The position numbers were made by a program, and so were the translations under genes. Shown here piece after piece: positions 5,515 through 36,613 of a stretch of 64,000 nt of DNA. This DNA comes from Gammaproteobacteria bacterium (GTDB taxonomy: Bacteria; Pseudomonadota; Gammaproteobacteria; DSM-16500), in assembly GCA_035536095.1 (NCBI GenBank), contig DATLOT010000026.1, positions 8,244-72,243 of the forward strand. The letters run 5' to 3'. The first letter of the stretch is position 1; each line of letters begins with the position of its first letter. Under the pieces are notes generated by a model, which was given only the letters and a program-made list of their open reading frames with translations, had not been told where the DNA came from and made no database searches.

Positions 5515-5607
5515 AGCACACTCCCACAGAAAATATCTGCACTGAATTAAGGAATCCCACTAACTACTGAACGATAAGAACAAGAATCCACAATAAAAAA
5601 ACAACTG

Positions 5608-5681: not shown

Positions 5682-5695
5682 CGCACCAAAAAAGG

Positions 5696-6130: not shown

Positions 6131-6136
6131 AAATCC

Positions 6137-7376: not shown

Positions 7377-7398
7377 CCGTATCTAAAGCGAAAAACCT

Positions 7399-7431
7399 AA
7401 AATCCCCTTACAAAAGTAAGGGGATTTTTTT
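7399..7431 (+). terminator. Intrinsic terminator of HU-like gene
   Basis: AAAATCCCCTTAC-AAAA-GTAAGGGGATTTT followed by T run. Confidence 0.85.
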
Positions 7432-7479
7432 GCGTGAAACAAAGCAGCGCGCGTAACAGAAAGCCGAACAACGCGCAAA

Positions 7480-7585
7480 ACCGAGCCGCGACCGTGAGGG
7501 AGCGTCACATGACTAACGGGTGCCACCACTCAATAACAGTGACGCTTGCTAGTCATGTGACGCTCCCTCACGGTCGCGGCTCGGT
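7480..7585. repeat. REP-like doublet (family 1): perfect 36-bp inverted repeat with 34-bp spacer
   Basis: 7480-7515 ACCGAGCCGCGACCGTGAGGGAGCGTCACATGACTA is the exact reverse complement of 7550-7585. Confidence 0.9.
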
Positions 7586-7632
7586 CTTACCGGGCATGCC
7601 CAACAGGGCGGATGAGGGGGTATCAAAACGAA

Positions 7633-8988: not shown

Positions 8989-8991
8989 AAA

Positions 8992-10953
8992 CTAACGAGC
9001 CGAATCATCTTGAGAAGGAGGCTGCTCTTTAGGTTTAGAAAAATCCAAAGATTCCTGCTTAGGTTCAGGTGCAATCACGCCGTCACCAGCGGGCCCGTGT
9101 GCCTTTTTTTCAGCTCTGGCACGCCATCCCGCTGGCTCTCGTATCGTTCTCCCCTTCATAATATCCTCTAATTGCTCTATACCCACTGTTTCATATTTCA
9201 CAAGCGCTTCCGCCAACGTATGCAATTTATCAATATTATCCTTTAAGATCTTTTCTGCACGTCTATAATTGCGATCGACGATAGTGCGCACCTCAGTATC
9301 TACAATATTCGAAGTCGCTTCCGAAACGTCCTTATGGCGCGTCACAGAATGGCCTAAGAACACTTCCTCATCATCACCGCTTAATGTGAGCGGCCCAACC
9401 TTAACAGAAAGACCCCACTTGGTTACCATGTTTCTCGCAATTTCAGTGGCTTTTTGAATATCATTGGACGCACCAGTGGTGACTTTACTCTCGCCGAAAA
9501 TAATCTCTTCAGCTAAACGACCACCAAATAAACTCGATAATTTGCTTTCCAAATATTCGCGGGTATAGTTATAACGATCACCTTCGGGCAAGAAAACCGT
9601 CACACCTAACGCACGACCACGCGGGATAATTGTCACCTTATGCACAGGATCATGAGAGGGTACGTGTAATCCCACAATAGCATGTCCTGCTTCATGATAA
9701 GCTGTTAAACGCTTTTCTTCATCAGACATCACCATTGAGCGACGCTCCGTCCCCATGATGATCTTGTCTTTTGCTTTTTCAAAGTCTTCCATCTCCACCA
9801 CGCGTTTATCAGCACGCGCTGCGAATAATGCCGCTTCATTCACAATATTGGATAAATCGGCGCCTGAAAATCCGGGCGTACTACGCGCAATCACAGAAAT
9901 ATCCACATCATCTGAGATAGGCACTTTACGGCTGTGTACACGCAATATGTGTTCCCGACCAAGCACATCAGGTAACCCAACAACAACTTGACGATCAAAA
10001 CGACCCGGTCGCAATAAAGCAGGATCAAGCACATCCGGCCTATTCGTTGCAGCAACAACGATGACACCCTCATTACCCTGGAAGCCATCCATCTCAACTA
10101 ACATTTGGTTAAGTGTTTGTTCACGCTCATCGTGACCACCCCCCAAACCCGCACCACGGTGACGACCAACCGCATCAATTTCATCGATAAAGATAATACA
10201 AGGCGCTTGCTTCTTCGCTTGTTCAAACATATCCCGCACACGCGAAGCGCCCACACCAACGAACATTTCAACAAAATCCGAACCCGAAATCGTAAAGAAA
10301 GGCACCTTTGCCTCACCTGCAACAGCACGCGCCAACAATGTTTTACCCGTTCCCGGCGGCCCTGCTAACAGTACACCACGTGGCAATTTACCGCCCAGAC
10401 GTTGAAATTTGCCAGGATCTTTTAAAAAATCAACGAGTTCCTTTACTTCTTCTTTTGCTTCTTCACACCCTGCCACATCAGAAAACGTGACTTTCACTTG
10501 GTCAGCATTGAGCAACCTGGCACGACTACGTCCAAAAGAGAACGCGCCTCCCTTACCACCCCCCGATTGCTGACGCAAAATGTGTATCCAAATCGCGATA
10601 AACACGACAATCAAAATCATTGGGAGCAGATTGATAATGTGCACTAACATACTAGGCTGCTCAGGCGGCTTACCTTTTACAATCACGCCCTTAGAGACCA
10701 TATCTTGAAGTAAAGTATCATCTTGCCGCATCGGCAAATAAGTGACAAAGTTCTTGTTATTCTGCAGCGTACCATTAACCGTCTGATCCGCAATTGTCGC
10801 TGCCTTCACGTTCCCCTGCTCTACTTCGTTCAACAACGTCGTATAACTGAGGTGCTCCTCTGTATCACGTTTAGGACCTAAGGTATTAAAAACTGAAACC
10901 AAGATAACGCCAATCACCATCCATAAGAGTATCGTTTTAATTGCGTCATTCAC
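8992..10953 (-). CDS. ftsH: ATP-dependent zinc metalloprotease FtsH
   Basis: Two TM helices, [13 protein letters not shown] zinc motif. Confidence 0.99.
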
Positions 10954-11048
10954 GTTGATAACCTCTCGTCGCGACTAGAGTCCATAGACTCTAAGATTAA
11001 TGAAAAAATTCAACTTACTTCCATCATACCTAACTTAGCGTTATTTCA

Positions 11049-11678
11049 CTAGGGTTTGCCTTTTAATTCACGCGCTAAAATATAGATTTCCCGGGATCGC
11101 TCTCGGGAGGCTTTTGGCTTACGGAGAACAACTTTCTTAAAATTGTTCTTAATTTCCCGAAGCAGCGCCTCATACCCCTCACCTTGGAAGGCTTTTACCA
11201 GTAATCCTCCGGTAGGAGACAATACCTTAAGCGCAAAATCTAATGCCAGTTCAGCAAGATAGATAGAACGAACAATATCAACACCCTTGTGCCCACTCAT
11301 ATTAGGCGCCATATCGGACAGCACCCAGTCTATTTGTTGCCCACTCAGCTGTGTTTTCAACTGTTCTAGTACAGCCTCATCCTTGAAATCACCTTGAATA
11401 AAGGACACACCTGGAATCGGCTCCATCTCCAGCACATCTAGCGCAAACACCTGCCCACCGGGCTTTACGCGCTGACACACAACCTGACACCATCCACCTG
11501 GCGCAGCACCTAAATCCACAACACGCATACCCGGCTTAAACAAGCGATCACGCTGATCGATTTCCAGTAATTTATATACCGCGCGTGAGCGATACCCAGC
11601 TTGCTGAGCCTGCTGCACATAAGGGTCTGCAAAATGTTCTTTTAACCATCGACGACTGCTGCGGCTTCTCTCTGCCAT
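11049..11678 (-). CDS. rlmE: 23S rRNA Um2552 methyltransferase
   Basis: 'GYRSRAVYKL', 'DLGAAPGGW', 'SDMAPN'. Confidence 0.97.
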   Translation of the reverse strand: MAERSRSSRRWLKEHFADPYVQQAQQAGYRSRAVYKLLEIDQRDRLFKPGMRVVDLGAAPGGWCQVVCQRVKPGGQVFALDVLEMEPIPGVSFIQGDFKDEAVLEQLKTQLSGQQIDWVLSDMAPNMSGHKGVDIVRSIYLAELALDFALKVLSPTGGLLVKAFQGEGYEALLREIKNNFKKVVLRKPKASRERSREIYILARELKGKP

Positions 11679-11679
11679 T

Positions 11680-12153
11680 TCAGAGATATTCTACTGAAGC
11701 AATTTCATATTGCGCTTTACCTTCCGGGGTTTGCGCATCAACAACATCACCTTCGTATTTACCGATCAATGCACGCGCAACGGGTGAAGTCACAGAGATT
11801 TTACCCTCTTTCAGATCAGCTTCATCTTGACCAACGATTTGATAACGAATGGTCTTTCCGTTTTCATCTATCAACTCAATTGTTGCGCCGAAAATAACCT
11901 TGCCATCATTTTCAATCTTTGTGATATCAATCACCTGCGCAAGCGATAGCGCCGATTCAACTTCTTTAATACGGCCTTCTATAAAGCCCTGACGCTCTTT
12001 AGCAGCGTGATATTCGGCATTTTCCTTCAAATCACCATGCGCACGCGCTTCTGCGATAGCATTGATAATATTTGGGCGCTCAACTCTCTTCAGTTGATCT
12101 AGTTCCATACGTAACTTCGCCTCGCCTTGTACTGTCATAGGTACTTTAGACAT
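11680..12153 (-). CDS. greA: Transcription elongation factor GreA
   Basis: '[16 protein letters not shown]', '[14 protein letters not shown]'. Confidence 0.97.
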
Positions 12154-19929: not shown

Positions 19930-21231
19930 TTACAATCCTATCGCCCATTGCCAGGCAGGGAATACTTCGATTATTCCTGATGATACTTTTATTGTTTCAC
20001 GGTGGTTTAGTGTAATAAGATAAGATTTTTTGAGCCCACATTCACTCATCGCAATCTCTAACGCCCTCACTTCTCTTCCGTATGTTTCTTTATTTTCCAC
20101 ACTGAGAGAAACTTGATACAACGCATACTCGCCAAGCAGTGAGGTGACAATAAAGTCAACTTCATAATTATTTTTTGTGCGATAATATTCAACTTTTAAA
20201 TGCGATTTTCGCAGCTTTATATACACAAAATTTTCTAACAGATGCCTCCAGTCAGACTGAAGACGATAGATAAAAGCATTCGCCAATCCCGTATCTATCA
20301 AATAAATTTTTTTCGGATTAGTCCGCCTGATGCGTTCTGAACGAGAAAAAATAGGAACAGGAAACACCAAATAAGCATCAGCCAAATAATCAAGGTACTC
20401 ATATAAAGCGTTTTTAGTACAATGGATACCTTGAGATTTTAAATCATTATAAAATTTATTTACACTGAATTGTGTCCCTGGAGAAGCAAGCAAACAACGA
20501 ACCATAGCACGCAAAGTATGGATATTTGAAACTTGATGCCTCTCCACAATATCACGCAATACCACAACATCAACATATTCTTGTAGTATTCGTATGCGAT
20601 ATTCATCAGCAACTGTTTGCACCTCGGGAAATCCACCCTGCACCAGAAATTGTTTGAATCGATTAGCAAGTAAAGCACGTTTTTGAGCACCTATATGCGC
20701 TGAAAATGTCATATCAGGGTCCATAAAAGTAAGAAATTCCCTATAGGAAAAAGGGAATATTTCTGTTGCAATTGACCGGCCACGAAGCGATGTGGCTATC
20801 TCTTTACTCAACAATTTCGCAGAGGAACCTGTTAAAACAAGATGGACATTTTCCGTGTCAACAAGCCGCCTAATAAATTTCTCCCACCCTGCTACATTTT
20901 GAATTTCATCAAAAAAGAAATAGCATTTCTGATTTTTTAATTCAGGATAGAGACGATAGTAAACGATCGGAATAAGCTGTAGCTGTTGAACCGTGAATGG
21001 CAAAAAACGTTCATCATCAAAGTTAATATAGAGAAGACGCTCTTTAGCAATGCCCGATTCTAATTTTTCCCACATATTCTGGAACAAAAAAAAGGTTTTT
21101 CCTGAGCGTCGCATGCCGATGATTGTGTCAATTTTTCCAGTCAATTCAGGCATCTCTGCTTCGCGCGGCACCAAATCAGGTAGCGGGCGCTCATGAAAAT
21201 CATGGATAATTTGCTCGAGTAACTCTTCCAT
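19930..21231 (-). CDS. AAA+ ATPase (AAA_14 / DUF4143 type)
   Basis: 'GMRRSGKT', 'FFFDEIQNV', 'LTGSSAKLL', 'KKIYLIDTGL', 'LENFV', 'EVDFIV'. Confidence 0.88.
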   Translation of the reverse strand: MEELLEQIIHDFHERPLPDLVPREAEMPELTGKIDTIIGMRRSGKTFFLFQNMWEKLESGIAKERLLYINFDDERFLPFTVQQLQLIPIVYYRLYPELKNQKCYFFFDEIQNVAGWEKFIRRLVDTENVHLVLTGSSAKLLSKEIATSLRGRSIATEIFPFSYREFLTFMDPDMTFSAHIGAQKRALLANRFKQFLVQGGFPEVQTVADEYRIRILQEYVDVVVLRDIVERHQVSNIHTLRAMVRCLLASPGTQFSVNKFYNDLKSQGIHCTKNALYEYLDYLADAYLVFPVPIFSRSERIRRTNPKKIYLIDTGLANAFIYRLQSDWRHLLENFVYIKLRKSHLKVEYYRTKNNYEVDFIVTSLLGEYALYQVSLSVENKETYGREVRALEIAMSECGLKKSYLITLNHRETIKVSSGIIEVFPAWQWAIGL

Positions 21232-23543: not shown

Positions 23544-23960
23544 GGGGGCGACCTGGTTTCGACGTGGGTTGCGAAGCTAAAGGTGCATGTCGAGGATTGT
23601 AGCTGACCTCGTAAAAAATGTTACAAAACAAATAGTTAACAAAAAACGTAAACTCGCTGTTGTTGCTAACGAGCGCTTCATCAAAGAAGCTGAGGTAGCA
23701 AAAGCCGCTTAAAAACCGGCTCGGCGCCATCCACCAATTGTGCTTGTACGATTGGCAGTTTGTGAAAGCAAACGCGGGTGGTCAGAACCTACAAGCTCGC
23801 GAAATGACCCGCCCGAGGTCAAATCGTTAAACCTAGTGGGCTCGCGGCCTAGTACCCTTCTCGTTGGGGACGAAGCGGCTAAATCAAATGACGAGATAAA
23901 CATGTAGACCCAATAGTAGAGGATTTGCGGACGCGGGTTCAATTCCCGCCGCCTCCACCA
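23544..23960 (+). ncRNA. ssrA: tmRNA (about 417 nt)
   Basis: 5' GGGGGCGACCTGGTTTCGAC, 3' GCGGGTTCAATTCCCGCCGCCTCCACCA, tag frame ending ...VAKAA*, downstream of smpB. Confidence 0.95.
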
Positions 23961-24420: not shown

Positions 24421-24684
24421 ATGAAAAAGAGTCGCTATACAGAAGAACAAATTGTTCGCATTTTACGTGAAACTGATCGAGATTCTATCGCTGAAGTTGC
24501 TAAACGCAATGGTGTTTCAGAAGCATCTATCTATGGCTGGCAAAAACGTTTTGGTGAAATGGAAACCAATGATGTGAAACGCCTCAAAGAGCTCGAGACA
24601 GAAAATGGGCGTCTCAAGAAGCTTCTTGCAGAGCGTGATCTTGCAATCGAGGTAATGAAGGAAATCAACGCAAAAAAATGGTAA
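24421..24684 (+). CDS. IS3 transposase OrfA
   Basis: 'MKKSRYTEEQIVRILRE', HTH, 'LKELETENGRLKKLLAE'. Confidence 0.92.
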   Translation: MKKSRYTEEQIVRILRETDRDSIAEVAKRNGVSEASIYGWQKRFGEMETNDVKRLKELETENGRLKKLLAERDLAIEVMKEINAKKW

Positions 24685-25528
24685 GCGTGCAAGCGCGTAT
24701 GGAACAGGCCTCATATGCAATGCAGCGAGGCCTGAGCCAGCGGATGACTTGTGCGCTGCTTAAAATAAGTCGTTCAAATTTATATTATTCACGTAAGATG
24801 CCATTAAAGGATGCGCCTGTGATTGAAGCAATGAAAGTATTATCTGGAACGTATCCACGATTCGGCTCACGCCGCATACGTATATTCTTGCAACGTGATG
24901 GCATCAACCTTGGTAAGGAGCGTTGCGGACGTTTATGGGCAAAGCAGGACTACAAGTGCCAAGAAAACGTTGTAGAAAACGTGCTGGAACAATAATAAGA
25001 CCATTAGCGCCAACTGCGCGCAATTCAGTGTGGAGTTATGATTTTGTGTATGATAGTTGCGCAAATGGCCAAAAGTTAAAATGTTTAACTGTTGTTGATG
25101 AATACACACGTGAATGCCTAGCGATTGATGTAAATGGCGCTATTCGTTCTTCACGTGTTATAGATGTGCTGAGTAAACTAATGAGGAGTCACGGTACGCC
25201 ACGTTATCTTCATTCCGATAATGGACCTGAATTTGTGAGTAAAGCGCTACTTGAATGGGCAACAAAAGAGTCGTTACAATTAGCATTAATTGAGCCTGGC
25301 AAACCATGGCAAAATGGTACAAATGAAAGTTTCAACGGTAAATTCCGTGATGAATGTTTGTCAATGGAATGGTTCCGTAATCGAATGGAAGCAAAAGTTG
25401 TGATTGAGGATTGGCGCGAACATTATAACGATGTCAGGCCGCATTCCAGCTTGAACTACCAAACTCCTAATGAATTTAAAGTATCATTGGGAAATTATTT
25501 AACAACTGGGGCTGATTTCTCTAATTGA
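24678..25528 (+). pseudogene. IS3 transposase OrfB with an extra frameshift near 24940
   Basis: 'YPRFGSRRI' in one frame; 'AGLQVP...WSYDF...VVDEYTRECL...SDNGPEF...NESFNGKFRDE' DDE core in another. Confidence 0.85.
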
Positions 25529-25698
25529 TTTTGGTACTAAAAAACCGGGCAGGTCAATGGTAGGTGATGGCCGGTTTCCTAGACAGGTTCGCCTAAGCGG
25601 TAGCCGGAGCGTAGCTTGGGTTGAGGCGGGGTAGAGGATTGGATGACAGCGCGGATTGAGGCAAGTCGGAGTACAAAGTAAAACCGCTGGGTCTGCTA

Positions 25699-28600
25699 CT
25701 ACTCTGCAGGCCCATCTTCATGAGTAGTAAAATCAGACAACCAGCAGAATGTGTTAACCAGCTTCATTTGCTCAATTGTTTTGCAGGGAATTTCTAAAAG
25801 GTTTTTATTAACAACCACTACAGCCAAACATTTTGCACGCGATAGCGCAACATTGAGTCTGTTTTTACTATAAAGAAACTCAATATTACGCGGTAAATCT
25901 TCTTCACTAGAAGTTACCATTGATACCAAAACAATGGGCGCTTCTTGTCCCTGGAATTTATCCACGGTGCCGACCCTAGCCCCTGGTGGCAATATAGATT
26001 TCAAATAATTAACCTGAACATTGTAGGGAGTAACGACAAGAATATCATCTTGATTTAGGTCTCGTGTGCCATTTTGATATCTCAGTTTCTGGAGAATTAC
26101 CTGATTATAAAGTTTTTTTATAACGACACCTTCTTCCTCACTTTTTTGTGAACAACCGGTATGATTAGCAGCAACGATATGAATACCTTCAGATGTGATC
26201 CCCTCAATTGGCTTATCAAAAACTAAACATCGTTGTTCATTCCCTGAATCAGCATTTAATCGTCCATCATAAAAAGCAGCTGAGATAAATTTACAAATAC
26301 TTGGGTGTAATCGTCGTGTGTTATTAAGAAAGATTCCTCTTTCTGGTGGGATTGTCGCGTGATCTTCTAGTAGAAATTCCAATATAGATTTACCTGCATT
26401 ACCAGGATGAACGCCTTTAATAGGTTGACCCAGCTGCATCTGATCTCCAACAAGAATAATATTTTTCGCAGCAGTACCCATAACAACAACGTTCGCAATT
26501 GAAACCTGACCTGCCTCATCAACAAAAAGATAATCCAGATGGCTATCAAAACGGTTATCTGAAAACAACCAAGCCGTGCCAGCCAATAGCGCAACGTTTA
26601 GACAATCATCTTTATTTGTTGTTTCACTGCGAATACAGCGCTTAGTATAATGAGTATCTTCGTCATCTTTGCTACCCCACTTAATGCCTGTAAAACTAAA
26701 ATTCTCTTCTAAAGCCACTTCTTCTATCTTGTCCAGTAAATTATGGATTGCTTTATGGGAATTAGCTGTAACCCCAACCTTCTTACCCTGACGAATTAAT
26801 TCTACGATAACATGAGCGCTGGTATGCGTTTTACCGGCACCAGGCGGCCCTTGTATAAAGAGATAGCTTTCATTTAGATTAGCAATCGCTGCAAGAGTAT
26901 TTATTTGAAGTTCGCCGGTACCGACAATTGATTCCCCAGAATTTTTTCCCTTAATTCTTGGAATAGCTTTATTGAGTATATCCAACACCGCCATATATTT
27001 ATGCTGATTTTGAAGAATGCTATCCGCCACTCTATAAATAGCCTCGCGCAATGATTTAGCATCAATCGGATTAGAAGGCCCAATGGACAATCGTTCCGGC
27101 AAACTATCTTTGACACCTCGTTTCAATTTGACTGTGCATTCATCATTATTAAGCTCTACGATAGTACCAGCGGCTTTCATAGTGGCAACATTAACAACGC
27201 TATCATAACAATTAAATTTATATTCTTGCGGTAGAAAATGATAAGTATAAATCAATGATCGCTTCTCAGGCATCGGTTTACCCATTAAGGTCAAACCTCC
27301 TAAACATTCCGGATCATCGATAAGCTCATATTCAAACTTATCTCGTCTTTCAAAGCTGGCCCACCATTGCGGTTTGTTTTCTCGGCGGTGAAATTCCAAC
27401 AAAGAAAATAATAATTCCCTTAATGGCTTTTCGTCCTCACTCACACCGTCAAGCAGCCGATGGCGATAGGATTCATATTCAACTTCCCAATCTTTTCTCT
27501 CTAGAACTGTTTCATTTTCTGTGTTGTTATTTTTTCCAGTAAACCATGGCATATCGCTGGATCGTAAACTTAACAACCAGTCCCGTAGTTTGAGTGTGGA
27601 AACACAATCAATTTCGTTATATGCAGCTATTTCATCTAACAGTTTTTGATCTTTCGTTTCGCACCAAAGGTTATAAACCACAATACTATCGGTAGCTGTT
27701 GCAACTGAGCCTTCTCGCTTTTCCATATAGAACGTTTCAAGATTTTTAATTGAATATCCAGGTTCCGATGTTCTAATACTTTCACGAACCACTTTGTATA
27801 AATCAACAAATTTATCTTGGCGCAGCAAATTATCTATTTGTTCTTCTGCTATTCCATATCTACAGGCAAGCCTTTTTAGAGCAGATGTTTCGTAATGATT
27901 ATAATGATAAATATGTGCGTTGGGATACACTTGTATGTGATCGCCAATAAATGTCATAAATTCTTTGAAAGTTTCCCGTTCCTGCTCATGATTATGCGCC
28001 CAGAAAGTTTTAAAAATATAACTTCCTTGAGTGACGAAATAGATACCAAATAAATACTCAAGACCATTGGGATAAAGTGGATCACCTTCCATATCAAAAA
28101 AGATATCGCCCGTATCCGGTTTTGGCATGCGCTCAAATCCACACCCTGGCAAAGACGTTAATATTTCATACTTATTCTCACCAGTTCGTAACTTATGTAT
28201 CTGTAAATTGGCTTGAGCTTGCAATCTTTTGAAAACATCTGGATTTAACTCAGATACAATTGTATCAGCAGCTAACGAAGCCAAATCAGAAACTGTTTTT
28301 ATCTGTGCTTTTTCTAATTTATCGATTTGTGATCGTTGAATGTTAGCTACAAGACTAAGATGATTATCAGACTCCCATTGCTCAATACAATGATCTCGCC
28401 AATGACATATCGAACAATGTTTACAAGGTTCTGGATAAGAATGAACAGGTGGCGATGCCATGTATGACTCAAACTGATGCTTTGCTTGCAAGTAGTAAAA
28501 TGAAAAATCATCAAACTTAAAAGATACCTGCTTTCCATCACCCAACACTAAGTGCATCAATTCCGGCTTAACACCTTGAGCATCTTCAAGCAAACTAGTA

Positions 28601-29067
28601 TATGCACATAATTGCATAATATGCTTGGGCTTAGGATTTCTTGCAAGCTTAGTATCGACCACTTCATAACTGAAAGAGCCAAATCTGGAAGGTTTGTCAA
28701 TTTTTATTAAGAAATCTGCATCTCCACGCCAAGGATGTTTATAAAACACACCTTGATAGACAACAGCGGCACCTGATTGCAATGCTTCTTTAGTAAGTTT
28801 CACCCTCTCACCAAGATCCAGGTCTTTAGGAATTTGAAAAATCGTTTTACCTTGCTTTCCTAAAGACTCAAGGTAATCAGATTCATGTTGATGGCCTTTT
28901 TCCTTCAATAGCTTACTGACAGAAGAATCCTCTGATTTGAGAATTTTATCTGCAAGATTGTGGAAATCAAGAAAAGTGAGATGATGACATTCTAGGAAAT
29001 TCACCAAATCTGATGCCGAAAATAAATACTGACCATCATTATTTTTTTGCACGATAAATACCCTCAT
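25699..29067 (-). CDS. TM0106-family RecB-like nuclease / RNase H-like / SF1 helicase fusion
   Basis: 'GDADFL..YEVVDTKLA..QLCAY', Cys cluster 'CKHCSICHWRDHC', 'FFDMEGDP..YNEIDC', 'QGPPGAGKT', 'DEAGQ', 'GTVDKFQGQE', 'RLNVALSRAK'. Confidence 0.88.
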   Translation of the reverse strand: MRVFIVQKNNDGQYLFSASDLVNFLECHHLTFLDFHNLADKILKSEDSSVSKLLKEKGHQHESDYLESLGKQGKTIFQIPKDLDLGERVKLTKEALQSGAAVVYQGVFYKHPWRGDADFLIKIDKPSRFGSFSYEVVDTKLARNPKPKHIMQLCAYTSLLEDAQGVKPELMHLVLGDGKQVSFKFDDFSFYYLQAKHQFESYMASPPVHSYPEPCKHCSICHWRDHCIEQWESDNHLSLVANIQRSQIDKLEKAQIKTVSDLASLAADTIVSELNPDVFKRLQAQANLQIHKLRTGENKYEILTSLPGCGFERMPKPDTGDIFFDMEGDPLYPNGLEYLFGIYFVTQGSYIFKTFWAHNHEQERETFKEFMTFIGDHIQVYPNAHIYHYNHYETSALKRLACRYGIAEEQIDNLLRQDKFVDLYKVVRESIRTSEPGYSIKNLETFYMEKREGSVATATDSIVVYNLWCETKDQKLLDEIAAYNEIDCVSTLKLRDWLLSLRSSDMPWFTGKNNNTENETVLERKDWEVEYESYRHRLLDGVSEDEKPLRELLFSLLEFHRRENKPQWWASFERRDKFEYELIDDPECLGGLTLMGKPMPEKRSLIYTYHFLPQEYKFNCYDSVVNVATMKAAGTIVELNNDECTVKLKRGVKDSLPERLSIGPSNPIDAKSLREAIYRVADSILQNQHKYMAVLDILNKAIPRIKGKNSGESIVGTGELQINTLAAIANLNESYLFIQGPPGAGKTHTSAHVIVELIRQGKKVGVTANSHKAIHNLLDKIEEVALEENFSFTGIKWGSKDDEDTHYTKRCIRSETTNKDDCLNVALLAGTAWLFSDNRFDSHLDYLFVDEAGQVSIANVVVMGTAAKNIILVGDQMQLGQPIKGVHPGNAGKSILEFLLEDHATIPPERGIFLNNTRRLHPSICKFISAAFYDGRLNADSGNEQRCLVFDKPIEGITSEGIHIVAANHTGCSQKSEEEGVVIKKLYNQVILQKLRYQNGTRDLNQDDILVVTPYNVQVNYLKSILPPGARVGTVDKFQGQEAPIVLVSMVTSSEEDLPRNIEFLYSKNRLNVALSRAKCLAVVVVNKNLLEIPCKTIEQMKLVNTFCWLSDFTTHEDGPAE

Positions 29068-29117
29068 TCATCAGTGGCATCCTTTCTGTAAAAATTACAA
29101 AAATAAATTAATAATTT

Positions 29118-32100
29118 TTACTCGCTAATAATTTTCTTTATTAGCGCATCTAATTTAGTAACCTCGCTTTTCCAATCTTTAGACCAATCTTGAGACCACA
29201 CCCTAGCGATTTTCCACCCACGCGACTCCAAAAGCTCCTGCCTAATTTTGTCTCTATCACGAGCATAAGGAGTAGAGTGAAACAAAGCTCCGTCACATTC
29301 TATACCTAAAATAAAATTTGAAGGTATGACAGGATGATGAACTCCGAGATCAATGTAAAAACCACTGGAACCAATTTCAGGAGAAATTTTGTAGCCCAAA
29401 TCTTCTAATCGACGATGAACATCTTTGCTGAAATTACTCGACTTACGAGTGGTGATTGCGCCGCCGACTCCAAATGATTCAAGAATTGCTTTTGCATCAA
29501 GATAATTTTTTTCACTAATAGCATTAGCATATTTTAAATATCGTCCAAACAAGACTAAATCAGGATTCTTTCCAAAGTCCTTTTCTTCTGTAGGTATTTG
29601 ATTAGGGTCAAAGGAGCAGAAAACTTCGATTTTTTGTTTTGCCCTTGTTATTGCAACATTAAGTCGACGACCGCCACCTTGCTTAGAAAGAGGGCCAAAA
29701 TTCATATATACTTTTTTACCTGGTGAGGATGGCGCATACCCTACCGAAATCAAAATAATATCCCTTTCATCACCCTGAACATTTTCTAAATTTTTAATAA
29801 AAAAACTAGCGTCTGCTTCACCATCAAAATAATTTCTTGCGCGCTCAATATCATTCTTAAAATTTATATCTGAAAGCTGCTTTCTTTCAATTGCATCTTC
29901 AATTGCCAGCATTTGTGACTGCCCCATCGCAATTATACCAAATGATTTATTAGGAATCATTTTCAATAACTCAGCGAGTCTATTCACAACAACTCCAGCT
30001 TCTACTACATTTCCATTTTTTTGGCTAAAATACGCATCTTTAATTTTATGAAACTTAATTACATCACCCTCAGTAATAAAATAAGGATTAGGAACAGCGA
30101 TCAATCGACCGCCATAAAAAGCCCTATTTGAGAAGGCAATAAGAGATTCAGATCGGCTTCTATAATGCCACTCTAATATCTCAGAAGGGTAGATTTGTGA
30201 CGCCAAATCTAAAATACTTGCTGTTAACTCTGCCTCATTATCATCATCGTCATCATCAATAAATTCACTAGCAGAGAAAAAATTTGTAGGCGGCATTTGT
30301 TTAGGATCACCAACAACAACCATAGAACTTGCTCTATAAATAGAGGGAACAGCATCTTCGACCCTCACTTGAGATGCCTCATCAAATATGATTATATCGA
30401 AAAGTCCCATTTGAATCGGCAAAACCTGGCTGATACTTAATGGACTCATTAACCAACATGGCTTGAGTTTAAGCATAGTAGAGAGGGCACCCTTCTCCAT
30501 TATCTCACGAGGCGGTAAAACCTTACGCTGCTTATTTGCCTCTCGCTTAAGTAAGCTAAGACCTTCAAATTCACCAATACCTTTCTTCCATCTTTTTGAG
30601 AAAGTATTATTTACGAAATCACGCGCTGAATGCCTATGACTATCCTCAATTCTCTTAAATTGCTCAATTTTTTTATGAAAAACATCTTTATCAAAATTAC
30701 GCAACTCTGGATTTTGAGTAATGCTTTCATCGAGCCACCACTTCATGACAAGAGATAGCACGTATGAACCCCAAGGACTCTCAATAGACACAAGATTATC
30801 AACGAGTATTTGCTTTGAAAAATCAGTTTTTATATTTAAGCGAAGATTTTCCAAGCATAAATCCACCTTATCAAGAAGTTCAAGATCATCTATTGTTTGA
30901 ATAAGAAGATCATAAGGAAAAAAATCATTATTTTTTATTTCTAGTTGCGGAGATCTCTCAAAATAATTGTACAGCTCATTTTTATATTGACCTAATATGT
31001 TAATATTTTTTTCCAGATCAGATTTGAGGTGTGAAATCTCCAAAATTAATTTCTTTATTTCACCACTAGATTCGGCAGTATAATTTATAAATTTAGCTTG
31101 ACTCAATAATCCTAAATTTTTGACTATAGCCCCAGTTTCAGAGACGATTTTTATAATTGGAATTATTGTTTGACACGTATCTATGACCAATTGTGGATTA
31201 GCTTCTTCTAAGGCTACAGGAATCAACTTATTCTGCGTTATTGCTTTAAATGACTTAATCGCTTCACAAACTAATCGATAAGCTTTAAAGGCTTTATTTG
31301 TCCCATCCCATTTAGACTGAAGATATTGACAGCGATAATTACGCATTCTCCAGAAGGTAGGCGAACACCAATCAACAAGCCCATGCTTTAATGAATAATA
31401 TGATTCAAGCTGTCTTACTAGCTCAATGTCAGCATCAAGCTTGATTTGATCAAAATATAACTTTTCGCTTTCAATGATTTTTATAATTTCATCTATTTCT
31501 TTCTGATAAATAGGCAACCCAGCCTGGTCAGAGTAAAACAGATTAGAAAAACTCATCCATTCGGGAGGAATAGTTGACTTAATAATTTCATCTAAAACAC
31601 TTGCTGATGGAATAGAGTCAATGTTATTGATTCCCAAATCAATAATCTTTTTTTCCAACTCATTTACAGTCTTTTCAGACTGTTTTATTTTATCTATCAA
31701 ATCTGTGATTGATTGCGAGAAACTCGTTGTTAAAATAGTATCCTTTTTTCTATAAAGCCAAGGATGCGTCGGAAAGTTGGGAACCTTTTTTACTTTATCT
31801 TGTAACTCGTCGAGTATTGAACAACTCTGCTGCAAATCTGCAAAAGAACACTCAGAAAATTGTTTTGCTAAGGCAATATTAACCTTATCAACTGCAAATT
31901 GAGCGTATATCGATAGTAAATCTGAAATAGATAAACCACTAGGATTGTGCTTTGATTCAAGAACTCGATAATAATTATTTATTTCTGCTTTTAACTTGTC
32001 AAATTCATCAGTAATTAAATCCCATTGCTGATCGGTACTAGTATCATGCACTGAATCCGAAAGCTCTAAAAATGAATTATAAAGATTTTGCTTATTTAAG

Positions 32101-33398
32101 TCGCTGCTATGAATAAGAACGGCTTGAGAAACAAGATTAGCCTGTTGTAACCGAGAATAAACAACATCGAGAGCAGCTCTTTTTTCTGAAACAAATAATA
32201 CTTTCTTCCCTTTTGCCAATGCTTCTGCAATTAAATTTGTAATAGTCTGGCTCTTTCCAGTACCTGGTGGCCCTTGAATCACCACAACTTGACTTTTTGT
32301 TGTTTGATCTATTGCTCTGTGCTGAGAGGAATCGATATTTACTACAAAATGATTTTCTTTTTCTTTGTATCCATCAAGCATTTTTATTCGTTCATGATCA
32401 TCGCCTCTATCATTTGGTATTGGCTTTCCCAGAAACAGTTCCGATAAAATCGGATGCATTTCTGTTTCTTCAAGAATAGAATCATAATCGCGTAAAAGAA
32501 CAGTACGACTAGCATTTAAATGGTCAATAAGGACGATATCAATTAAATAAAATTGATTGTTTGTTACCTTGTTATAAAGCTCGTACTCTTTTTTTGAAAG
32601 CACTTCTTCGATATTAACCGGAATCCTATCAATTATTTCTCCTTGCTCATCTTTGACAATTTTAAATCGTGGAGGAATTTTAGGAAGCGCATCAGAAAAA
32701 GAATTTTCGATACTAAGTGTTTTCCCTGCATCCTCAAGATAACGTTTAAGCTCTTCAAGTGCATCCGACACCTGATCTGATTCAAACCGCTCAGGAAGTT
32801 GAATTCCCCACTTTTGACGAAGTGCAAGCCTAAGAGAAGAGTTAAGCTGGAGTGAATTATCTTCTAGTTTAAGACTCCAACGCTTTCTCTTATCTTTTGT
32901 GATATCCACCGCAATTTTAAATACAGGTGAAATTAAAAAATCTTCTGGTTTATAGGTAGTCGTATCTCTCCAGCAAAGAAATGGCCCAAGAAGCCAAGCA
33001 CCAGAAATACCATACTCTCGCTGAAATTTATCATCCGCAAGCCGTACTTTATCTAGCCGTTTAATTAAATCTGCATTATTGGTTTCATCCAATAAAAAAT
33101 GTTTGCTAAGATCAAGGACAGATTCATTAAGTAATTCCTGAAACCGTGGCATCATGGTGCGTAAGGGTACAAATTTTTCTAAAATCAGATCGTCAAATTC
33201 TTCATCTACTTTTGGATTTTTAGATAGGTTAATACAATGTCCACGGCTTTCTCGATAGTAAAGTTCTTTATTTCGACGTGACAAGTTGGCGAGGAGATCT
33301 CGATATCGTAATATTTGGCGCCTTATAAAATCTAGGACTGACACAGAGGTTTCCTCTAACCTATTGGATATTCTTGTATTATATATTAGCGGGCGCAA
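29118..33398 (-). CDS. DUF4011-like / SF1 helicase / Vsr-like (MTES_1575-type) endonuclease; Hhe-like anti-phage protein
   Basis: 'LLANLSRRNKELYY', 'QGPPGTGKSQTI', 'VSEKRAALDVV', 'CWLMSPLSISQ', 'DEASQ', 'HYRSR', 'ENVQGDERD', C-terminal 'IDLGV..GIECDG..FHS..ARDRD..RQ..LE.RGW..RVWSQDW'. Confidence 0.82.
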   Translation of the reverse strand: MRPLIYNTRISNRLEETSVSVLDFIRRQILRYRDLLANLSRRNKELYYRESRGHCINLSKNPKVDEEFDDLILEKFVPLRTMMPRFQELLNESVLDLSKHFLLDETNNADLIKRLDKVRLADDKFQREYGISGAWLLGPFLCWRDTTTYKPEDFLISPVFKIAVDITKDKRKRWSLKLEDNSLQLNSSLRLALRQKWGIQLPERFESDQVSDALEELKRYLEDAGKTLSIENSFSDALPKIPPRFKIVKDEQGEIIDRIPVNIEEVLSKKEYELYNKVTNNQFYLIDIVLIDHLNASRTVLLRDYDSILEETEMHPILSELFLGKPIPNDRGDDHERIKMLDGYKEKENHFVVNIDSSQHRAIDQTTKSQVVVIQGPPGTGKSQTITNLIAEALAKGKKVLFVSEKRAALDVVYSRLQQANLVSQAVLIHSSDLNKQNLYNSFLELSDSVHDTSTDQQWDLITDEFDKLKAEINNYYRVLESKHNPSGLSISDLLSIYAQFAVDKVNIALAKQFSECSFADLQQSCSILDELQDKVKKVPNFPTHPWLYRKKDTILTTSFSQSITDLIDKIKQSEKTVNELEKKIIDLGINNIDSIPSASVLDEIIKSTIPPEWMSFSNLFYSDQAGLPIYQKEIDEIIKIIESEKLYFDQIKLDADIELVRQLESYYSLKHGLVDWCSPTFWRMRNYRCQYLQSKWDGTNKAFKAYRLVCEAIKSFKAITQNKLIPVALEEANPQLVIDTCQTIIPIIKIVSETGAIVKNLGLLSQAKFINYTAESSGEIKKLILEISHLKSDLEKNINILGQYKNELYNYFERSPQLEIKNNDFFPYDLLIQTIDDLELLDKVDLCLENLRLNIKTDFSKQILVDNLVSIESPWGSYVLSLVMKWWLDESITQNPELRNFDKDVFHKKIEQFKRIEDSHRHSARDFVNNTFSKRWKKGIGEFEGLSLLKREANKQRKVLPPREIMEKGALSTMLKLKPCWLMSPLSISQVLPIQMGLFDIIIFDEASQVRVEDAVPSIYRASSMVVVGDPKQMPPTNFFSASEFIDDDDDDNEAELTASILDLASQIYPSEILEWHYRSRSESLIAFSNRAFYGGRLIAVPNPYFITEGDVIKFHKIKDAYFSQKNGNVVEAGVVVNRLAELLKMIPNKSFGIIAMGQSQMLAIEDAIERKQLSDINFKNDIERARNYFDGEADASFFIKNLENVQGDERDIILISVGYAPSSPGKKVYMNFGPLSKQGGGRRLNVAITRAKQKIEVFCSFDPNQIPTEEKDFGKNPDLVLFGRYLKYANAISEKNYLDAKAILESFGVGGAITTRKSSNFSKDVHRRLEDLGYKISPEIGSSGFYIDLGVHHPVIPSNFILGIECDGALFHSTPYARDRDKIRQELLESRGWKIARVWSQDWSKDWKSEVTKLDALIKKIISE

Positions 33399-33645: not shown

Positions 33646-33899
33646 GAGCAACGGCGAGCAACGGAGTCAGGCTTGCATAATCAACAACGGGGTCAGGCTT
33701 GCATAATTGTACATTCAATCAACGGGGTCAGGCTTGCATAATTGTACATTTACACTAGCAACGGCAACGGGGTCAGGCTTGCATAATTGTACATTTACAC
33801 TTATTGCAGTAAACGCTTGATAGTATTAAATCTGAAAATACAATTATACAAGCCTGACCCCGTCTCATGACCCCGTCTCACAAGCCTGACCCCGTCTCA
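33646..33899. repeat. MITE/REPIN-like element (family 2) with nested tandem end copies
   Basis: Core 33765-33866 has 25-bp TIRs ACGGGGTCAGGCTTG(C/T)ATAATTGTA; three progressively longer left-end copies precede it and two right-end copies follow. Confidence 0.88.
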
Positions 33900-33970
33900 A
33901 AAAATAGCACCTCCTTTATTGATACTTATAGTCCGTGGTTTTATAAGTATTTGGCGCATATCCTACATTA

Positions 33971-34168
33971 ATGTGCAAAAAACATCCAGCACTTATTAAG
34001 TTGGGCAAAAGAATAAGAGAACTCCGAAAAGAAAAGGGGTTTTCTCAAGAAGACTTTGCCTATGAGGTTGGTTTGGATAGGACTTATATGGGTAGCGTGG
34101 AGAGGGGCGAGCGTAATATTGCAGCTATAAACTTAATTCGTATCGCCAAAACGCTTAAGGTCGAGTAA
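33971..34168 (+). CDS. XRE-family HTH regulator, C-terminally truncated by a 10-bp duplication
   Basis: 'LGKRIRELRKEKGFSQEDFA..GLDRTYMGSVERGERN'; TAAGGTCGAG duplicated at 34156-34175. Confidence 0.85.
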   Translation: MCKKHPALIKLGKRIRELRKEKGFSQEDFAYEVGLDRTYMGSVERGERNIAAINLIRIAKTLKVE

Positions 34169-34275
34169 GGTCGAGGTTGGTGCTCTCTTTCCTTCAATTA
34201 GAGGACTTGATTAGCGCAACTGAGCAGGCAAGTTCACAGTAATTAAAAAAATGTTAGCATCTGTCTGCTCAAAAA

Positions 34276-35871
34276 CTACCCACTTTTGTCGGCAGGTTTA
34301 TATATATGTGCAGCAATTCCCATGCAGTAGATTTCTAGCAACTCATCTCTGCTTTTGTTGTTAAGCTCGTTTATATCGTAATGTGTGCATAGTCGCTTAA
34401 TAAGTTCTTCTTTAGCTAATTTATTGAATCCCTTCATAGCAAAATCAAATGCATCTAATGGGCTTTTTAATCCTCGCGGCACTTCTTGATATTCGCCAAA
34501 AAAAGTATCAGGTGATTTTTCATACGCGCTGATCTCATCATCGGATAATGGAAGATTTACAATAAAACACTTTCCGCTATGGTCTGAGCATATGCCTGTG
34601 GCAGTTTTATTCTTTATGTTAACTACGGCATTTTTTAGCGTAACAATAAAGTTTTTTCCTTCTTGATCGGATAGTTCGTATTTCTCACCATATAGCAATC
34701 GATTGTGCTTAAGTTCAGTCAGTGTTCCGTCAAATGTATCGGGTATCACGGTATGTGCTTCTATTGATTCCCATAATTTATGAATTGGCGCATGTTTTTT
34801 TCTGTCCGCTATAAGTTGAGCTAAAGTTCTTTTTTTGAAACCATAATCATCCATATTAAAACCGTCACTAAAATACAATGGATTCTGAGATGGACCATCT
34901 AGATTGTAATGATATGGGTGGTTAGTTAAAAACACATATGCACTTTTATCCAAGTTAGTCTTTGTGCTCACATTAGAATGTTCAAGTTTTCTAAGTTGTT
35001 TAGCTAGAATCTCCCCACTAAATTTGGCGGCTTCAATAAATGGCAGATTGATATCAACAAATATCACACGCTCATGTTTAGCTTCCTTAGCCAAGGCTTT
35101 ATTAATTGGGCCGCCGATATCAAGCTTTAAATTAGGAGAGCCATCATGGGAAAAACCATCGTTTAACCTATGCCTGTATTTAGCCTCAACTGAAAAACTT
35201 TGGCCAGTTTCAGTGTGAATTGCGATAAATTCACAGTGGGTGCTTTTTTTATCTGATTCATTTTCAAAATTTATTACATAACCAGCTTTTATGAAGATTG
35301 CTGCCACAAATGTTTCATAGTATGCACTAGCAAATTGCTCTTTATTCTTGAGTCGTTTGATTAATAGTTCTAACAGTTCGGCGTTGTGAGAGATTAAATA
35401 TAAATTATACGAAAGCCACATAAAAACAGAAACAGCACCTGTATATGGCGCAGATACTTTTCCTTCAACTTTTTCCAGGGTGGCCCTATATGCCACAAGA
35501 GAATCGTATGCTCTGATAAGCGGATGTTTGAACTCATCTGTATCGCTTCTCTGTTCATCATGCCATTTCTGTCCAAAAAGAGAGAGAAGGTGTGAATATA
35601 AGAAATCGTGGAAAGTCTCCCATTTTCCTGTGTACATTCGATTGCCGACAATTACCACCCGGTGATTTTCAACAGCAGCTGAGATGATTGGCTTGCCCCA
35701 TCCTTGTTGTTTTTTTCTTCGTATTTCTTCTGCTTGTTTACGCTTAATTATTTTTTGAACATTTTTATCTAAAATAATTTTATTCAGATTGCCATGGCAG
35801 CGCTTAAATTTAATGCCGCTGCCACATGGGCAACGCTCATTTCTACCTATTTTTATTCCTTGATATCTCAA
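34276..35871 (-). CDS. SEC-C motif protein with putative PD-(D/E)xK-like nuclease domain
   Basis: 'GRNERCPCGSGIKFKRCHG' SEC-C motif; 'CEFIAIHTETGQSFSVEAK' nuclease-like motif. Confidence 0.7.
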   Translation of the reverse strand: MRYQGIKIGRNERCPCGSGIKFKRCHGNLNKIILDKNVQKIIKRKQAEEIRRKKQQGWGKPIISAAVENHRVVIVGNRMYTGKWETFHDFLYSHLLSLFGQKWHDEQRSDTDEFKHPLIRAYDSLVAYRATLEKVEGKVSAPYTGAVSVFMWLSYNLYLISHNAELLELLIKRLKNKEQFASAYYETFVAAIFIKAGYVINFENESDKKSTHCEFIAIHTETGQSFSVEAKYRHRLNDGFSHDGSPNLKLDIGGPINKALAKEAKHERVIFVDINLPFIEAAKFSGEILAKQLRKLEHSNVSTKTNLDKSAYVFLTNHPYHYNLDGPSQNPLYFSDGFNMDDYGFKKRTLAQLIADRKKHAPIHKLWESIEAHTVIPDTFDGTLTELKHNRLLYGEKYELSDQEGKNFIVTLKNAVVNIKNKTATGICSDHSGKCFIVNLPLSDDEISAYEKSPDTFFGEYQEVPRGLKSPLDAFDFAMKGFNKLAKEELIKRLCTHYDINELNNKSRDELLEIYCMGIAAHIYKPADKSG

Positions 35872-36118
35872 ATTGCGATCTCCCGCAAAATTAAACTGAT
35901 AAGCTTAAAAAGATTAATCGTGTCTTTGCTATACGCCGGAACCGACATTAAGAATGCAGATAAAACTTGATGCTACGATCCATTTTTTTATTGTTATTTT
36001 GCACTAAAGATGGTCGACGATTTTATCGATTGCTTCTACGCAATTTGCTCTATACTCTTCTTTGACCTGCACACGATGCCCATTAACTGATTGCTTTCCT
36101 GCTGCTAGTTTTGAAAAA

Positions 36119-36249
36119 CAACGGGGTCAGGCTTGCATAATTGTACATTTACACTTATTGCAGTAAACGCTTGATAGTATTAAATCTGAAAATACAATTA
36201 TACAAGCCTGACCCCGTCTCAAGCCTGACCCCGTCTTTGACCCCGTCTC
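36119..36249. repeat. MITE/REPIN-like family 2 copy
   Basis: 36119-36220 is identical to 33765-33866; followed by two truncated right-end copies. Confidence 0.9.
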
Positions 36250-36421
36250 CATGCTGCAACCCGGTTGCATGTAATAGTTTACATTTTTGACTAGTGAAAT
36301 ATTCACGTATTAGATATGTCTTGCCAACGCGTCTTCGTCCATAAACAACCAAGAACTCAGCTTCTTGAGAATTATAAATTTTATCAAGGAGCTTTAACTC
36401 TTTTACTCTGCCAATAATCAT
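36250..36421 (-). pseudogene. N-terminal fragment of an archaeal-type (ATPase_2-like) ATPase, interrupted by the family 2 repeat
   Basis: 'MIIGRVKELKLL..LVVYGRRRVGKTYLI' Walker A, then reads into the repeat. Confidence 0.8.
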
Positions 36422-36566: not shown

Positions 36567-36613
36567 GCTGATTTCTCTAATTGATTTTGATACTAAAAAA
36601 ACCGGGCAGGTCA
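36567..36613 (+). mobile_element. Solo right end of the IS3 element
   Basis: GCTGATTTCTCTAATTGATTTTGATACTAAAAAAACCGGGCAGGTCA matches 25511-25556 with 1 substitution and 1 extra A. Confidence 0.85.

What the first reader, a model, noticed from the sequence alone, without database searches (positions are those of the whole stretch)
25699..33398. Two-gene operon of opposite-architecture helicase-nuclease fusions (Hhe-like + TM0106-like): candidate two-component defence system
Seen: two large minus-strand ORFs only 50 bp apart, each with a full SF1 (UPF1-like) helicase motif set. The first ends in a Vsr-like nuclease domain; the second starts with a RecB/Cas4-like nuclease with a Cys cluster plus a DEDD/RNase H-like domain. 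Known: the DUF4011-helicase-Vsr architecture matches the single-gene Hhe anti-phage system, while TM0106-family fusions are largely uncharacterised. Inference: co-transcription inside an ssrA-adjacent, IS-bounded island suggests the two may act together (for example RNA and DNA processing). I know of no described system with this pairing.
Basis: partly seen in the sequence, partly recalled or inferred. Interest (0 to 1): 0.75.

Follow-up and report, generated by a model that had tools for sequence, protein, structure and literature searches.

The report
Two unrelated helicase-nuclease genes, side by side
Two large helicase-nuclease genes really do sit 50-65 bases apart next to the tmRNA gene, but in more than 250 related loci they almost never occur together, so they look like two separate single-gene modules in a defence island, not a two-part system.

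Summary

The upstream gene (P0002, 1408-1426 aa) is DUF4011 + Upf1-like SF1 helicase + Vsr-like MTES_1575 nuclease. It scores best against PADLOC candidate PDC-S37 (818 bits). It falls below the NCBIfam cut-offs for Hhe (610 of 2000) and ProA (768 of 1500).

The downstream gene (P0001, 1117-1122 aa) is a bona fide TM0106-family protein: Cas4-like Fe-S nuclease + DEDDy exonuclease + SF1B helicase. Its best fold match is Dna2.

The interpretation as a dedicated two-gene system is not supported:
- None of the three closest P0002 homologues (70-76% identity) has a TM0106 neighbour, and neither do any of 80 metagenomic relatives.
- None of the three closest P0001 homologues (64-67%) has an Hhe-like neighbour. 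Of 80 genomic relatives one does, and there the genes are convergent.
- In 400 genomes of the same class the two families are adjacent once, again convergently.

P0001 relatives sit beside many different partners (WYL regulators 21/78, McrC 10/78, RmuC, SbcC-like, type I and III restriction genes). They occur on 68 plasmids and in none of 50,697 phage records.

Co-transcription here is possible but could not be tested. Both families are already catalogued and neither has been tested experimentally.

The parts
29118..33398 (-). P0002: helicase-nuclease with DUF4011, a Upf1-like SF1 helicase and a Vsr-like nuclease. Likely true start is GTG 33344, giving 1408 aa.
   Evidence: PADLOC PDC-S37 818 bits against Hhe 441 bits. 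NCBIfam ProA 768 (cut-off 1500) and Hhe 610 (cut-off 2000).
32826..33293 (-). DUF4011 domain of P0002 (residues 36-191)
   Evidence: PF13195, 35.5 bits (cut-off 22.2).
31764..32336 (-). P0002 helicase N-terminal half (AAA_11, Walker [10 protein letters not shown]382)
   Evidence: Invariant columns.
29613..30413 (-). P0002 helicase motifs II-VI (DEASQ, GDPKQ, QGDERD, RRLNVAITRA; AAA_12)
29145..29432 (-). P0002 C-terminal MTES_1575 / Vsr-like endonuclease (D1350, E1367, H1374 invariant). The protein ends 8 aa later and has no DUF3320.
   Evidence: (101.8 bits).
29053..29117 (-). AT-rich spacer of 65 nt (50 nt if the ATG at 29067 is used). No terminator hairpin is predicted on the minus strand and no convincing promoter.
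25699..29067 (-). P0001: TM0106-family triple enzyme (Fe-S Cas4/RecB-like nuclease, DEDDy exonuclease, SF1B helicase). Likely true start is GTG 29052, giving 1117 aa.
28378..29019 (-). P0001 PD-(D/E)xK nuclease core with Cys cluster (C27, C215, C218, C221, C227)
   Evidence: Cas4, PDDEXK, TIGR03491. Invariant columns.
27574..28104 (-). P0001 RNase_H_2 / DEDDy 3'-5' exonuclease-like domain (FFDMEGDP motif; Y483-x3-D487)
   Evidence: (117 bits).
25792..26910 (-). P0001 Upf1/Dna2-like SF1B helicase core
23544..23960 (+). tmRNA gene (ssrA). The variable island begins just downstream of it.
   Evidence: In several same-genus genomes contigs break next to ssrA.
24421..25549 (+). IS3-family element: orfA, an orfB split into two frames, and the right end at 25511-25549
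36567..36605 (+). Solo copy of the IS3 right end (39 nt, 92% identical to 25511-25549), closing the roughly 11-kb block
   Evidence: family D6.

Best explanation
These are two independent single-gene modules that island shuffling has placed next to each other downstream of ssrA. The shuffling left IS3 and MITE-like traces. They do not form a dedicated two-component system.

P0002 is a short (about 1.4 kaa) relative of the Hhe/ProA anti-phage helicase-Vsr nucleases and is closest to PADLOC candidate PDC-S37. Inferred mechanism: an Upf1-like 5'-3' motor, loaded through its DUF4011 N-terminus, carries a Vsr-type endonuclease that nicks or cuts invading DNA.

P0001 is a TM0106-family enzyme with Dna2-like architecture. 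Inferred mechanism, by analogy with Dna2 and Bad: a 5' single strand is threaded into the Fe-S PD-(D/E)xK nuclease while the SF1B motor moves 5'-3'. The extra DEDDy exonuclease trims the 3' strand. One polypeptide would therefore shred DNA from an end, either for defence against foreign DNA or for damage-induced repair.

Shown here: the domain content, the intact motifs, the distribution of each family, and the lack of conserved pairing. Inferred: all biochemical activities and any role in defence.

The two genes may still be read on one transcript here, because the gap is short and has no terminator. If so, that is an accident of placement.
For: Against a conserved pair:
- The closest P0002 homologues (76, 73 and 70% identity) stand alone. 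One lies beside an AlpA/AbiEii element and one beside a Legionella pneumophila ICE T4SS.
- None of 80 metagenomic P0002-family loci has any TM0106 match, and no neighbour recurs in more than 3 of the 80.
- The closest P0001 homologues (67, 66 and 64%) have no Hhe-like neighbour.
- Only 1 of 80 genomic P0001 loci has one, and it is convergent.
- In the class survey of 400 genomes, Hhe-like genes occur in 24 others and P0001-like genes in 15. They are adjacent only in G431, again convergently and with the Hhe-like gene frameshifted.

P0001 keeps many different partners:
- WYL+WCX regulator in 21/78 loci, McrC in 10/78, McrB-like in 6/78, plus RmuC, SbcC/D-like, HD, SNF2 and HsdR.
- Its close same-strand upstream neighbours include type III Res, a DEAD helicase, NERD-UvrD, McrC, RmuC and an AAA_27 protein.
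- It occurs on 68 plasmids and in 0 of 50,697 phage records.

Fold: the AF2 model (pLDDT 80.8) matches Dna2 best, at E 4e-27 over the full length.

Bad, a bacterial DNA2-like Fe-S nuclease and 5'-3' helicase, lies next to a type III-like methyltransferase (PMC7430649).
Against: - The two genes are co-directional, 50-65 nt apart, with no predicted terminator between them. Co-transcription is therefore plausible.
- The two families co-occur in genomes more often than expected: 4 genomes observed against about 0.9 expected, odds ratio 6.6, one-sided p = 0.009. This is not corrected for phylogeny or for overall defence load.
- Two independent convergent adjacencies exist (L085, G431).
- P0001 here lacks the WYL regulator that many relatives have, so it might depend on P0002's promoter.
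- No activity of either protein has been measured.
Confidence: 0.72

Rival explanations
1. The two genes form a dedicated two-component defence system, co-transcribed and functionally interdependent, for example with one processing RNA and the other DNA.
For: - Same strand, 50-65 nt gap, no terminator predicted.
- Both lie in an ssrA-adjacent, IS-bounded block.
- There is a mild genome-level co-occurrence.
Against: - The pair is absent next to the three closest homologues of each gene.
- It is absent from 80 P0002-family loci and from 79 of 80 P0001-family loci.
- The only other adjacencies are convergent.
- Each family has a wide distribution of its own, with other or no partners.
- Nothing points to an RNA substrate. 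The closest characterised architecture, Dna2 and Bad, acts on DNA.
Confidence: 0.06
2. Loose synergy. The TM0106 triple enzyme is a generalist end-shredder that benefits from any neighbouring enzyme that nicks or cuts DNA. Here the Vsr-type nuclease of P0002 would make the entry sites that P0001 then degrades. There would be no obligate or co-evolved pairing.
For: - P0001 relatives sit immediately downstream of, or beside, many different DNA-cleaving modules: McrBC, type I and type III restriction genes, RmuC, SbcC-like and NERD-UvrD.
- Bad lies next to a type III-like methyltransferase, and its authors propose a new kind of restriction enzyme.
- Three independent Hhe-like/TM0106 adjacencies were seen: this window, L085 and G431.
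Against: - Co-location in defence islands is expected without any functional link.
- Many P0001 relatives have no nuclease neighbour. G043 has argH and polA beside it.
- No biochemical data exist.
Confidence: 0.15
3. P0001 is a DNA-damage repair enzyme (end resection or flap processing under a WYL-type damage regulator) and has nothing to do with defence. Only P0002 is a defence gene.
For: - A WYL+WCX regulator is the commonest neighbour, in 21/78 loci.
- WYL activators such as PafBC, DriD and SiwR drive genotoxic-stress genes (PMC10693628).
- The fold is Dna2-like.
- The family is unusually well conserved, with mean column identity 69% across phyla.
- G043 has a housekeeping context.
Against: - The gene is frequently found on plasmids, ICEs and defence islands beside R-M, McrBC, TIR and TA genes.
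- Its distribution is patchy: 15 of 400 class genomes.
- WYL repressors also control defence systems (PMC9122601).
Confidence: 0.3

Closest known systems
PADLOC phage-defence candidate PDC-S37 (a candidate defence family in PADLOC; as I recall, the S series holds single-gene candidates)
   Same: It is the best-scoring profile for P0002: 818 bits, with query residues 297-1424 aligned to profile positions 233-1342 of 1550. It shares the helicase plus Vsr-like nuclease layout. Like a single-gene candidate, P0002 has no conserved partner.
   Different: It is only a candidate and, to my knowledge, has no published validation. No inclusion threshold was available to me.
Hhe (DUF4011 helicase + Vsr endonuclease anti-phage protein; Gao et al. 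2020, from memory; NCBIfam NF042953) and ProA (NF058533)
   Same: The domain order is the same: DUF4011, SF1 helicase, Vsr/MTES_1575 nuclease. It is a single gene. The C-terminal half is 35-42% identical.
   Different: P0002 scores 610 bits (cut-off 2000) for Hhe and 768 bits (cut-off 1500) for ProA. It is 1.4 kaa, against 1.56-2.1 kaa for the Hhe-like genes found in the class survey. It ends right after the nuclease, without the DUF3320 tail seen in the long forms.
TM0106 family RecB-like putative nuclease (NCBIfam TIGR03491), helicase-fused form
   Same: P0001 passes the curated cut-off (312.5 against 97.45 bits). It is 55-67% identical to thousands of proteins of 1100-1150 aa, which RefSeq annotates under this name.
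   Different: None, it is a member. My literature search for the family name found no study of it.
Dna2 (eukaryotes) and Bad (Geobacillus stearothermophilus DNA2-like helicase-nuclease, PMC7430649)
   Same: Both have an N-terminal Fe-S PD-(D/E)xK nuclease and a C-terminal SF1B Upf1-like helicase in one chain. Dna2 is the top fold match. The catalytic positions in Bad (D150, K815) parallel D138 and K746 in P0001.
   Different: P0001 carries an additional DEDDy/RNase H-fold exonuclease domain between the nuclease and the helicase. Sequence-level kinship to Bad was not tested. No biochemistry exists for P0001.

Membership tests
Hhe (NCBIfam NF042953 equivalog) | Whole-protein score at or above the curated cut-off (2000 bits) | tested here: not met
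   610.3 bits. PADLOC Hhe model 441 bits, below PDC-S37.
Hhe (NCBIfam NF042953 equivalog) | DUF4011 + SF1 helicase + Vsr-like nuclease in one polypeptide | tested here: met
   PF13195, PF13086/PF13087 and PF18741 all above their gathering scores.
Hhe (NCBIfam NF042953 equivalog) | Acts alone (single-gene system) | tested here: met
   No recurrent neighbour in 80 loci. The three closest homologues stand alone. This is context only; function was not tested.
Hhe (NCBIfam NF042953 equivalog) | Protects against phage | not testable with these tools
   Needs plaque assays.
ProA (NCBIfam NF058533 equivalog) | Whole-protein score at or above 1500 bits | tested here: not met
   768.4 bits. I found no paper describing ProA.
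PDC-S37 (PADLOC candidate) | Best, near full-length match to the family profile | tested here: met
   818.3 bits, query 297-1424 against profile 233-1342 of 1550, the top hit. PADLOC's own threshold was not shown.
TM0106 family RecB-like nuclease (TIGR03491) | Score at or above 97.45 bits over the nuclease plus RNase H-like region | tested here: met
   312.5 bits, residues 17-498 against profile 2-462 of 462.
Dna2/Bad-like nuclease-helicases | Fe-S cluster cysteines flanking a PD-(D/E)xK nuclease, followed by an SF1B helicase | tested here: met
   Invariant C27, C215, C218, C221, C227, D138 and K140. Dna2 is the top Foldseek hit, E 4e-27. Cluster binding itself was not tested.
Dna2/Bad-like nuclease-helicases | 5'-3' translocation and ssDNA endonuclease activity | not testable with these tools
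   Needs biochemistry.
Dedicated two-gene defence system (Hhe-like + TM0106) | The pair is conserved as neighbours across genomes | tested here: not met
   For P0002 relatives: none of the 3 closest and none of 80 wider loci have it. For P0001 relatives: none of the 3 closest and 1 of 80 wider loci have it. One adjacency in the class survey. Both adjacent cases are convergent.
Dedicated two-gene defence system (Hhe-like + TM0106) | Co-transcription | not testable with these tools
The only indication is that no terminator is predicted in the gap.
Nhi / Mokosh MkoA / Cas4 proper (considered for P0001) | Full-length profile match | tested here: not met
   Nhi 13 bits. MkoA matches only the helicase C-terminal half (832-1100). 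Cas4 22-29 bits, below the cut-off of 65.

The most novel reading that the evidence does not exclude
The TM0106 triple enzyme may be a promiscuous 'DNA-end shredder' module that teams up with whichever nicking or cutting defence gene lies upstream of it. In other genomes that gene is McrBC, a type I or type III restriction gene, RmuC or a NERD helicase. In this Legionellales genome it would be a short Hhe-like helicase-Vsr nuclease, giving a co-transcribed 'cut then shred' pair with more-than-additive protection.
Probability: 0.15. Interest if true: 0.7.

Novelty: new member of a known kind. Interest (0 to 1): 0.3.

Why it matters
The comparison removes a tempting false lead. Tight spacing of two defence-looking genes in an island is not evidence of a system.

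It also leaves two useful targets. The first is the TM0106 nuclease-exonuclease-helicase family, which is large, highly conserved and carried on plasmids and islands, and for which I found no experimental study. Its recurring placement beside WYL regulators and restriction modules makes it a good single-gene candidate for a new defence or damage-response enzyme. The second is a short Hhe-like subfamily found in Legionella, including on or beside an L. pneumophila ICE, which could be tested as a stand-alone defence gene.

Tried and rejected
- Literature. Searches for ProA, PDC-S37 and DUF4011 and for TM0106/TIGR03491 found no relevant description. The only mention of Hhe and DUF4011 was a defence-system inventory table.
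- Promoter and terminator scan. Counts equal the shuffled expectation, so it says nothing beyond the lack of a hairpin in the gap.
- Upstream regions of nine P0001 homologues. No shared operator or promoter motif that would prove an independent transcript.
- GC and GC3 of the two genes against their neighbours. Not discriminating.
- Island boundaries from same-genus synteny. The genus is too divergent (tmRNA 70-79% identical), and the downstream Na/Ca-exchanger gene is itself accessory.
- Other classifications of P0001. Nhi, Mokosh MkoA, Cas4 proper and RecD-type all gave only partial or sub-threshold matches.
- Gene duplication. The two helicase cores share only motif-level similarity (E 2.7e-4).
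Full report
**1. What is there**

The window holds two long minus-strand ORFs, 25699-29067 (P0001, 1122 aa) and 29118-33398 (P0002, 1426 aa). Database gene calls and family consensus sequences favour internal GTG starts. These give 1117 aa from 29052 and 1408 aa from 33344, so the spacer is 65 nt rather than 50.

P0002 carries three elements:
- DUF4011, residues 36-191.
- A split Upf1-like SF1 helicase, AAA_11 at 355-544 and AAA_12 at 1070-1262.
- A C-terminal MTES_1575 Vsr-like nuclease, residues 1323-1418, at 101.8 bits.

P0001 passes the curated TIGR03491 'TM0106 family RecB-like putative nuclease' cut-off, with 312.5 bits against 97.45 over residues 17-498. It also contains an RNase_H_2 domain (322-498) and an AAA_11/AAA_12 helicase (720-1090).

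Alignments with 26 and 29 homologues show every expected catalytic residue to be invariant:
- P0001: a Cas4-type cysteine set (C27 and C215-x2-C218-x2-C221-x5-C227), D138/K140, a DEDDy-like set (D325, E327, Y483, D487) and Walker A K746.
- P0002: K382, D1006/E1007 and the nuclease residues D1350/E1367/H1374.

**2. Setting**

The tmRNA gene lies at 23544-23960. An IS3 element with a split orfB lies at 24421-25528. A 39-nt copy of its right end recurs at 36567-36605. Two identical 103-nt MITE-like repeats flank an XRE gene and a SEC-C protein gene at 33765-36221. No integrase is present.

GC falls from about 0.44 to 0.34-0.38 across the block, but gene-level GC and GC3 do not separate the two genes from their neighbours.

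The spacer is AT-rich. It has no minus-strand terminator hairpin and no convincing promoter. The scan found no more sites than shuffled sequence would give.

**3. Is the pair conserved?**

Starting from P0002:
- The three closest homologues, at 76, 73 and 70% identity, are stand-alone genes. One is next to AbiEii and AlpA-type island genes. Another, in Legionella pneumophila, is next to a trb/virB ICE transfer region.
- A profile of the 1.4-kaa subfamily retrieved 80 metagenomic loci with up to 10-kb flanks. tblastn with P0001, both full length and N-terminal 700 aa, found nothing in any of them.
- Clustering their neighbours found no protein that recurs in more than 3 of the 80 loci.

Starting from P0001:
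- The family is very large, with more than 4600 hits at 55-67% identity and a length of 1100-1150 aa.
- The three closest homologues (67, 66 and 64%) have no Hhe-like neighbour.
- Of the 80 best genomic loci, which span Legionella, Tatlockia, cyanobacteria, Chloroflexota, Actinomycetota and Pelagibacter, only one has a P0002-like gene nearby. This is L085, a Rhodomicrobium MAG, and there the genes are convergent.

In a sample of 400 genomes of the same class:
- Hhe-like genes occur in 24 other genomes. All are the long type, with open frames of 1560-2127 aa where intact, and match only the C-terminal half of P0002.
- P0001-like genes occur in 15 other genomes, and both occur together in four.
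- They are adjacent only in G431, convergently and with the Hhe-like gene frameshifted.
- Genome-level co-occurrence is above expectation (odds ratio 6.6, p = 0.009). That figure is uncorrected for phylogeny and for the tendency of defence-rich genomes to hold many systems.

I found the same-strand tandem nowhere except in this window.

**4. What each gene is**

P0002 scores best against PADLOC candidate PDC-S37, at 818 bits and nearly full length, with Hhe second at 441 bits. In NCBIfam it is below the equivalog cut-offs for ProA (768 of 1500) and Hhe (610 of 2000). It is shorter than those proteins and stops 8 residues after the nuclease, without the DUF3320 tail that the long plasmid-borne forms carry. 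Its nearest full-length relatives are from Legionella species and predatory Bdellovibrio-like bacteria. I file it as a short sister family of Hhe. It is probably a single-gene defence module, and it is untested.

P0001 gave an AlphaFold2 model with mean pLDDT 80.8. Its best PDB match is the Dna2 nuclease-helicase, at E 4e-27 over the full length, followed by IGHMBP2, Upf1 and Sen1. The sequence search agrees. The closest biochemically studied bacterial analogue is Bad of Geobacillus stearothermophilus. Bad is an Fe-S nuclease and 5'-3' SF1B helicase whose gene sits beside a type III-like methyltransferase, and its authors suggest it may belong to a new kind of restriction enzyme (PMC7430649). 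P0001 differs from Dna2 and Bad by an inserted DEDDy/RNase H-fold exonuclease domain.

Neighbourhood clustering of 78 P0001 loci shows the following:
- A WYL+WCX regulator, usually divergent, in 21 loci.
- McrC in 10 and McrB-like in 6.
- SbcD/SbcC-like, HD, RmuC, SNF2 and HsdR genes in smaller numbers.

Tight same-strand upstream neighbours are just as varied. They include type III Res, a DEAD helicase, NERD-UvrD, McrC, RmuC and an AAA_27 protein. The closest homologues sit beside type III R-M, TIR, BrnTA and integrase genes, or beside a relaxase with ArdA.

The family is on 68 PLSDB plasmids, 25 of them conjugative, and in none of 50,697 phage records. One relative in the same class lies between argH and polA, so the context is not always a defence island. 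My search for the family name found no paper that studies it.

**5. Mechanism (inferred)**

P0002: an ATP-driven Upf1-like translocase delivers a Vsr-type endonuclease to foreign DNA.

P0001: a Dna2-like enzyme that threads a 5' strand into its Fe-S nuclease while its motor moves 5'-3'. A proofreading-type exonuclease handles the 3' strand, so one polypeptide degrades DNA from ends.

Whether P0001 serves defence or WYL-controlled damage repair remains open. WYL repressors control defence systems (PMC9122601), and WYL activators control genotoxic-stress genes (PMC10693628).

P0001 may profit from cuts made by whatever nuclease lies next to it, here P0002. I give that about 15%.

**6. Verdict**

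The description is accurate, but the two-component interpretation is not supported. Both genes belong to families that are already catalogued, and the juxtaposition appears unique to this genome. Notes from earlier agents of this scan repeatedly describe the TM0106 enzyme as a stand-alone, WYL-linked, untested gene in other genomes. I treated those notes as leads, and my own census agrees with them.

Interest is modest. The value lies in the two individual untested families, not in the pair.

Noticed in passing
window 33656-33905 and 36116-36256: Two base-identical 103-nt MITE-like elements, each with 37-nt terminal inverted repeats and stuttered partial ends. They flank an XRE gene (33971-34168) and a 531-aa SEC-C-motif protein (34276-35871).
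   Followed up: partly
window 23544-23960: ARAGORN calls a 417-nt tmRNA with an unusually long predicted tag peptide of 30 residues ending AKAA. The resume codon may be miscalled.
   Followed up: no
G018:C12 and G027:C13 (loci L005, L007): In two other species of the same genus, TM0106-like genes lie near ssrA: a 483-aa form without the helicase about 13 kb away, and a fragment 4.4 kb away. In several relatives the contig breaks right next to ssrA. The ssrA flank looks like a genus-wide hotspot for this kind of cargo.
   Followed up: partly
L017 (G002:C28) 5168-11870: A same-genus genome carries a 1503-aa SF1 helicase fused to Toprim and topoisomerase-like domains. It is overlapped at its stop by a 251-aa HNH protein and preceded by a RES-domain protein. 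This is another possible defence cassette.
   Followed up: no
L104 5039-13040: The 64%-identical P0001 homologue is the fifth gene of a tightly packed same-strand run. The run is headed by a WYL+WCX regulator and continues with several small unannotated ORFs. In some genomes the TM0106 enzyme may therefore belong to a larger WYL-led operon.
   Followed up: no
window 36155-36421 and 19930-21231: An 88-aa N-terminal fragment of an ATPase gene, cut off by the MITE and IS3-end junction. An intact AAA_14/DUF4143 ATPase lies on the other side of ssrA, and the fragment looks similar to its start.
   Followed up: no
window 24678-25528: The IS3 orfB (rve integrase core) is split into two overlapping frames of 105 and 201 aa, beyond the usual orfA/orfB frameshift. 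This IS copy is probably decayed.
   Followed up: no
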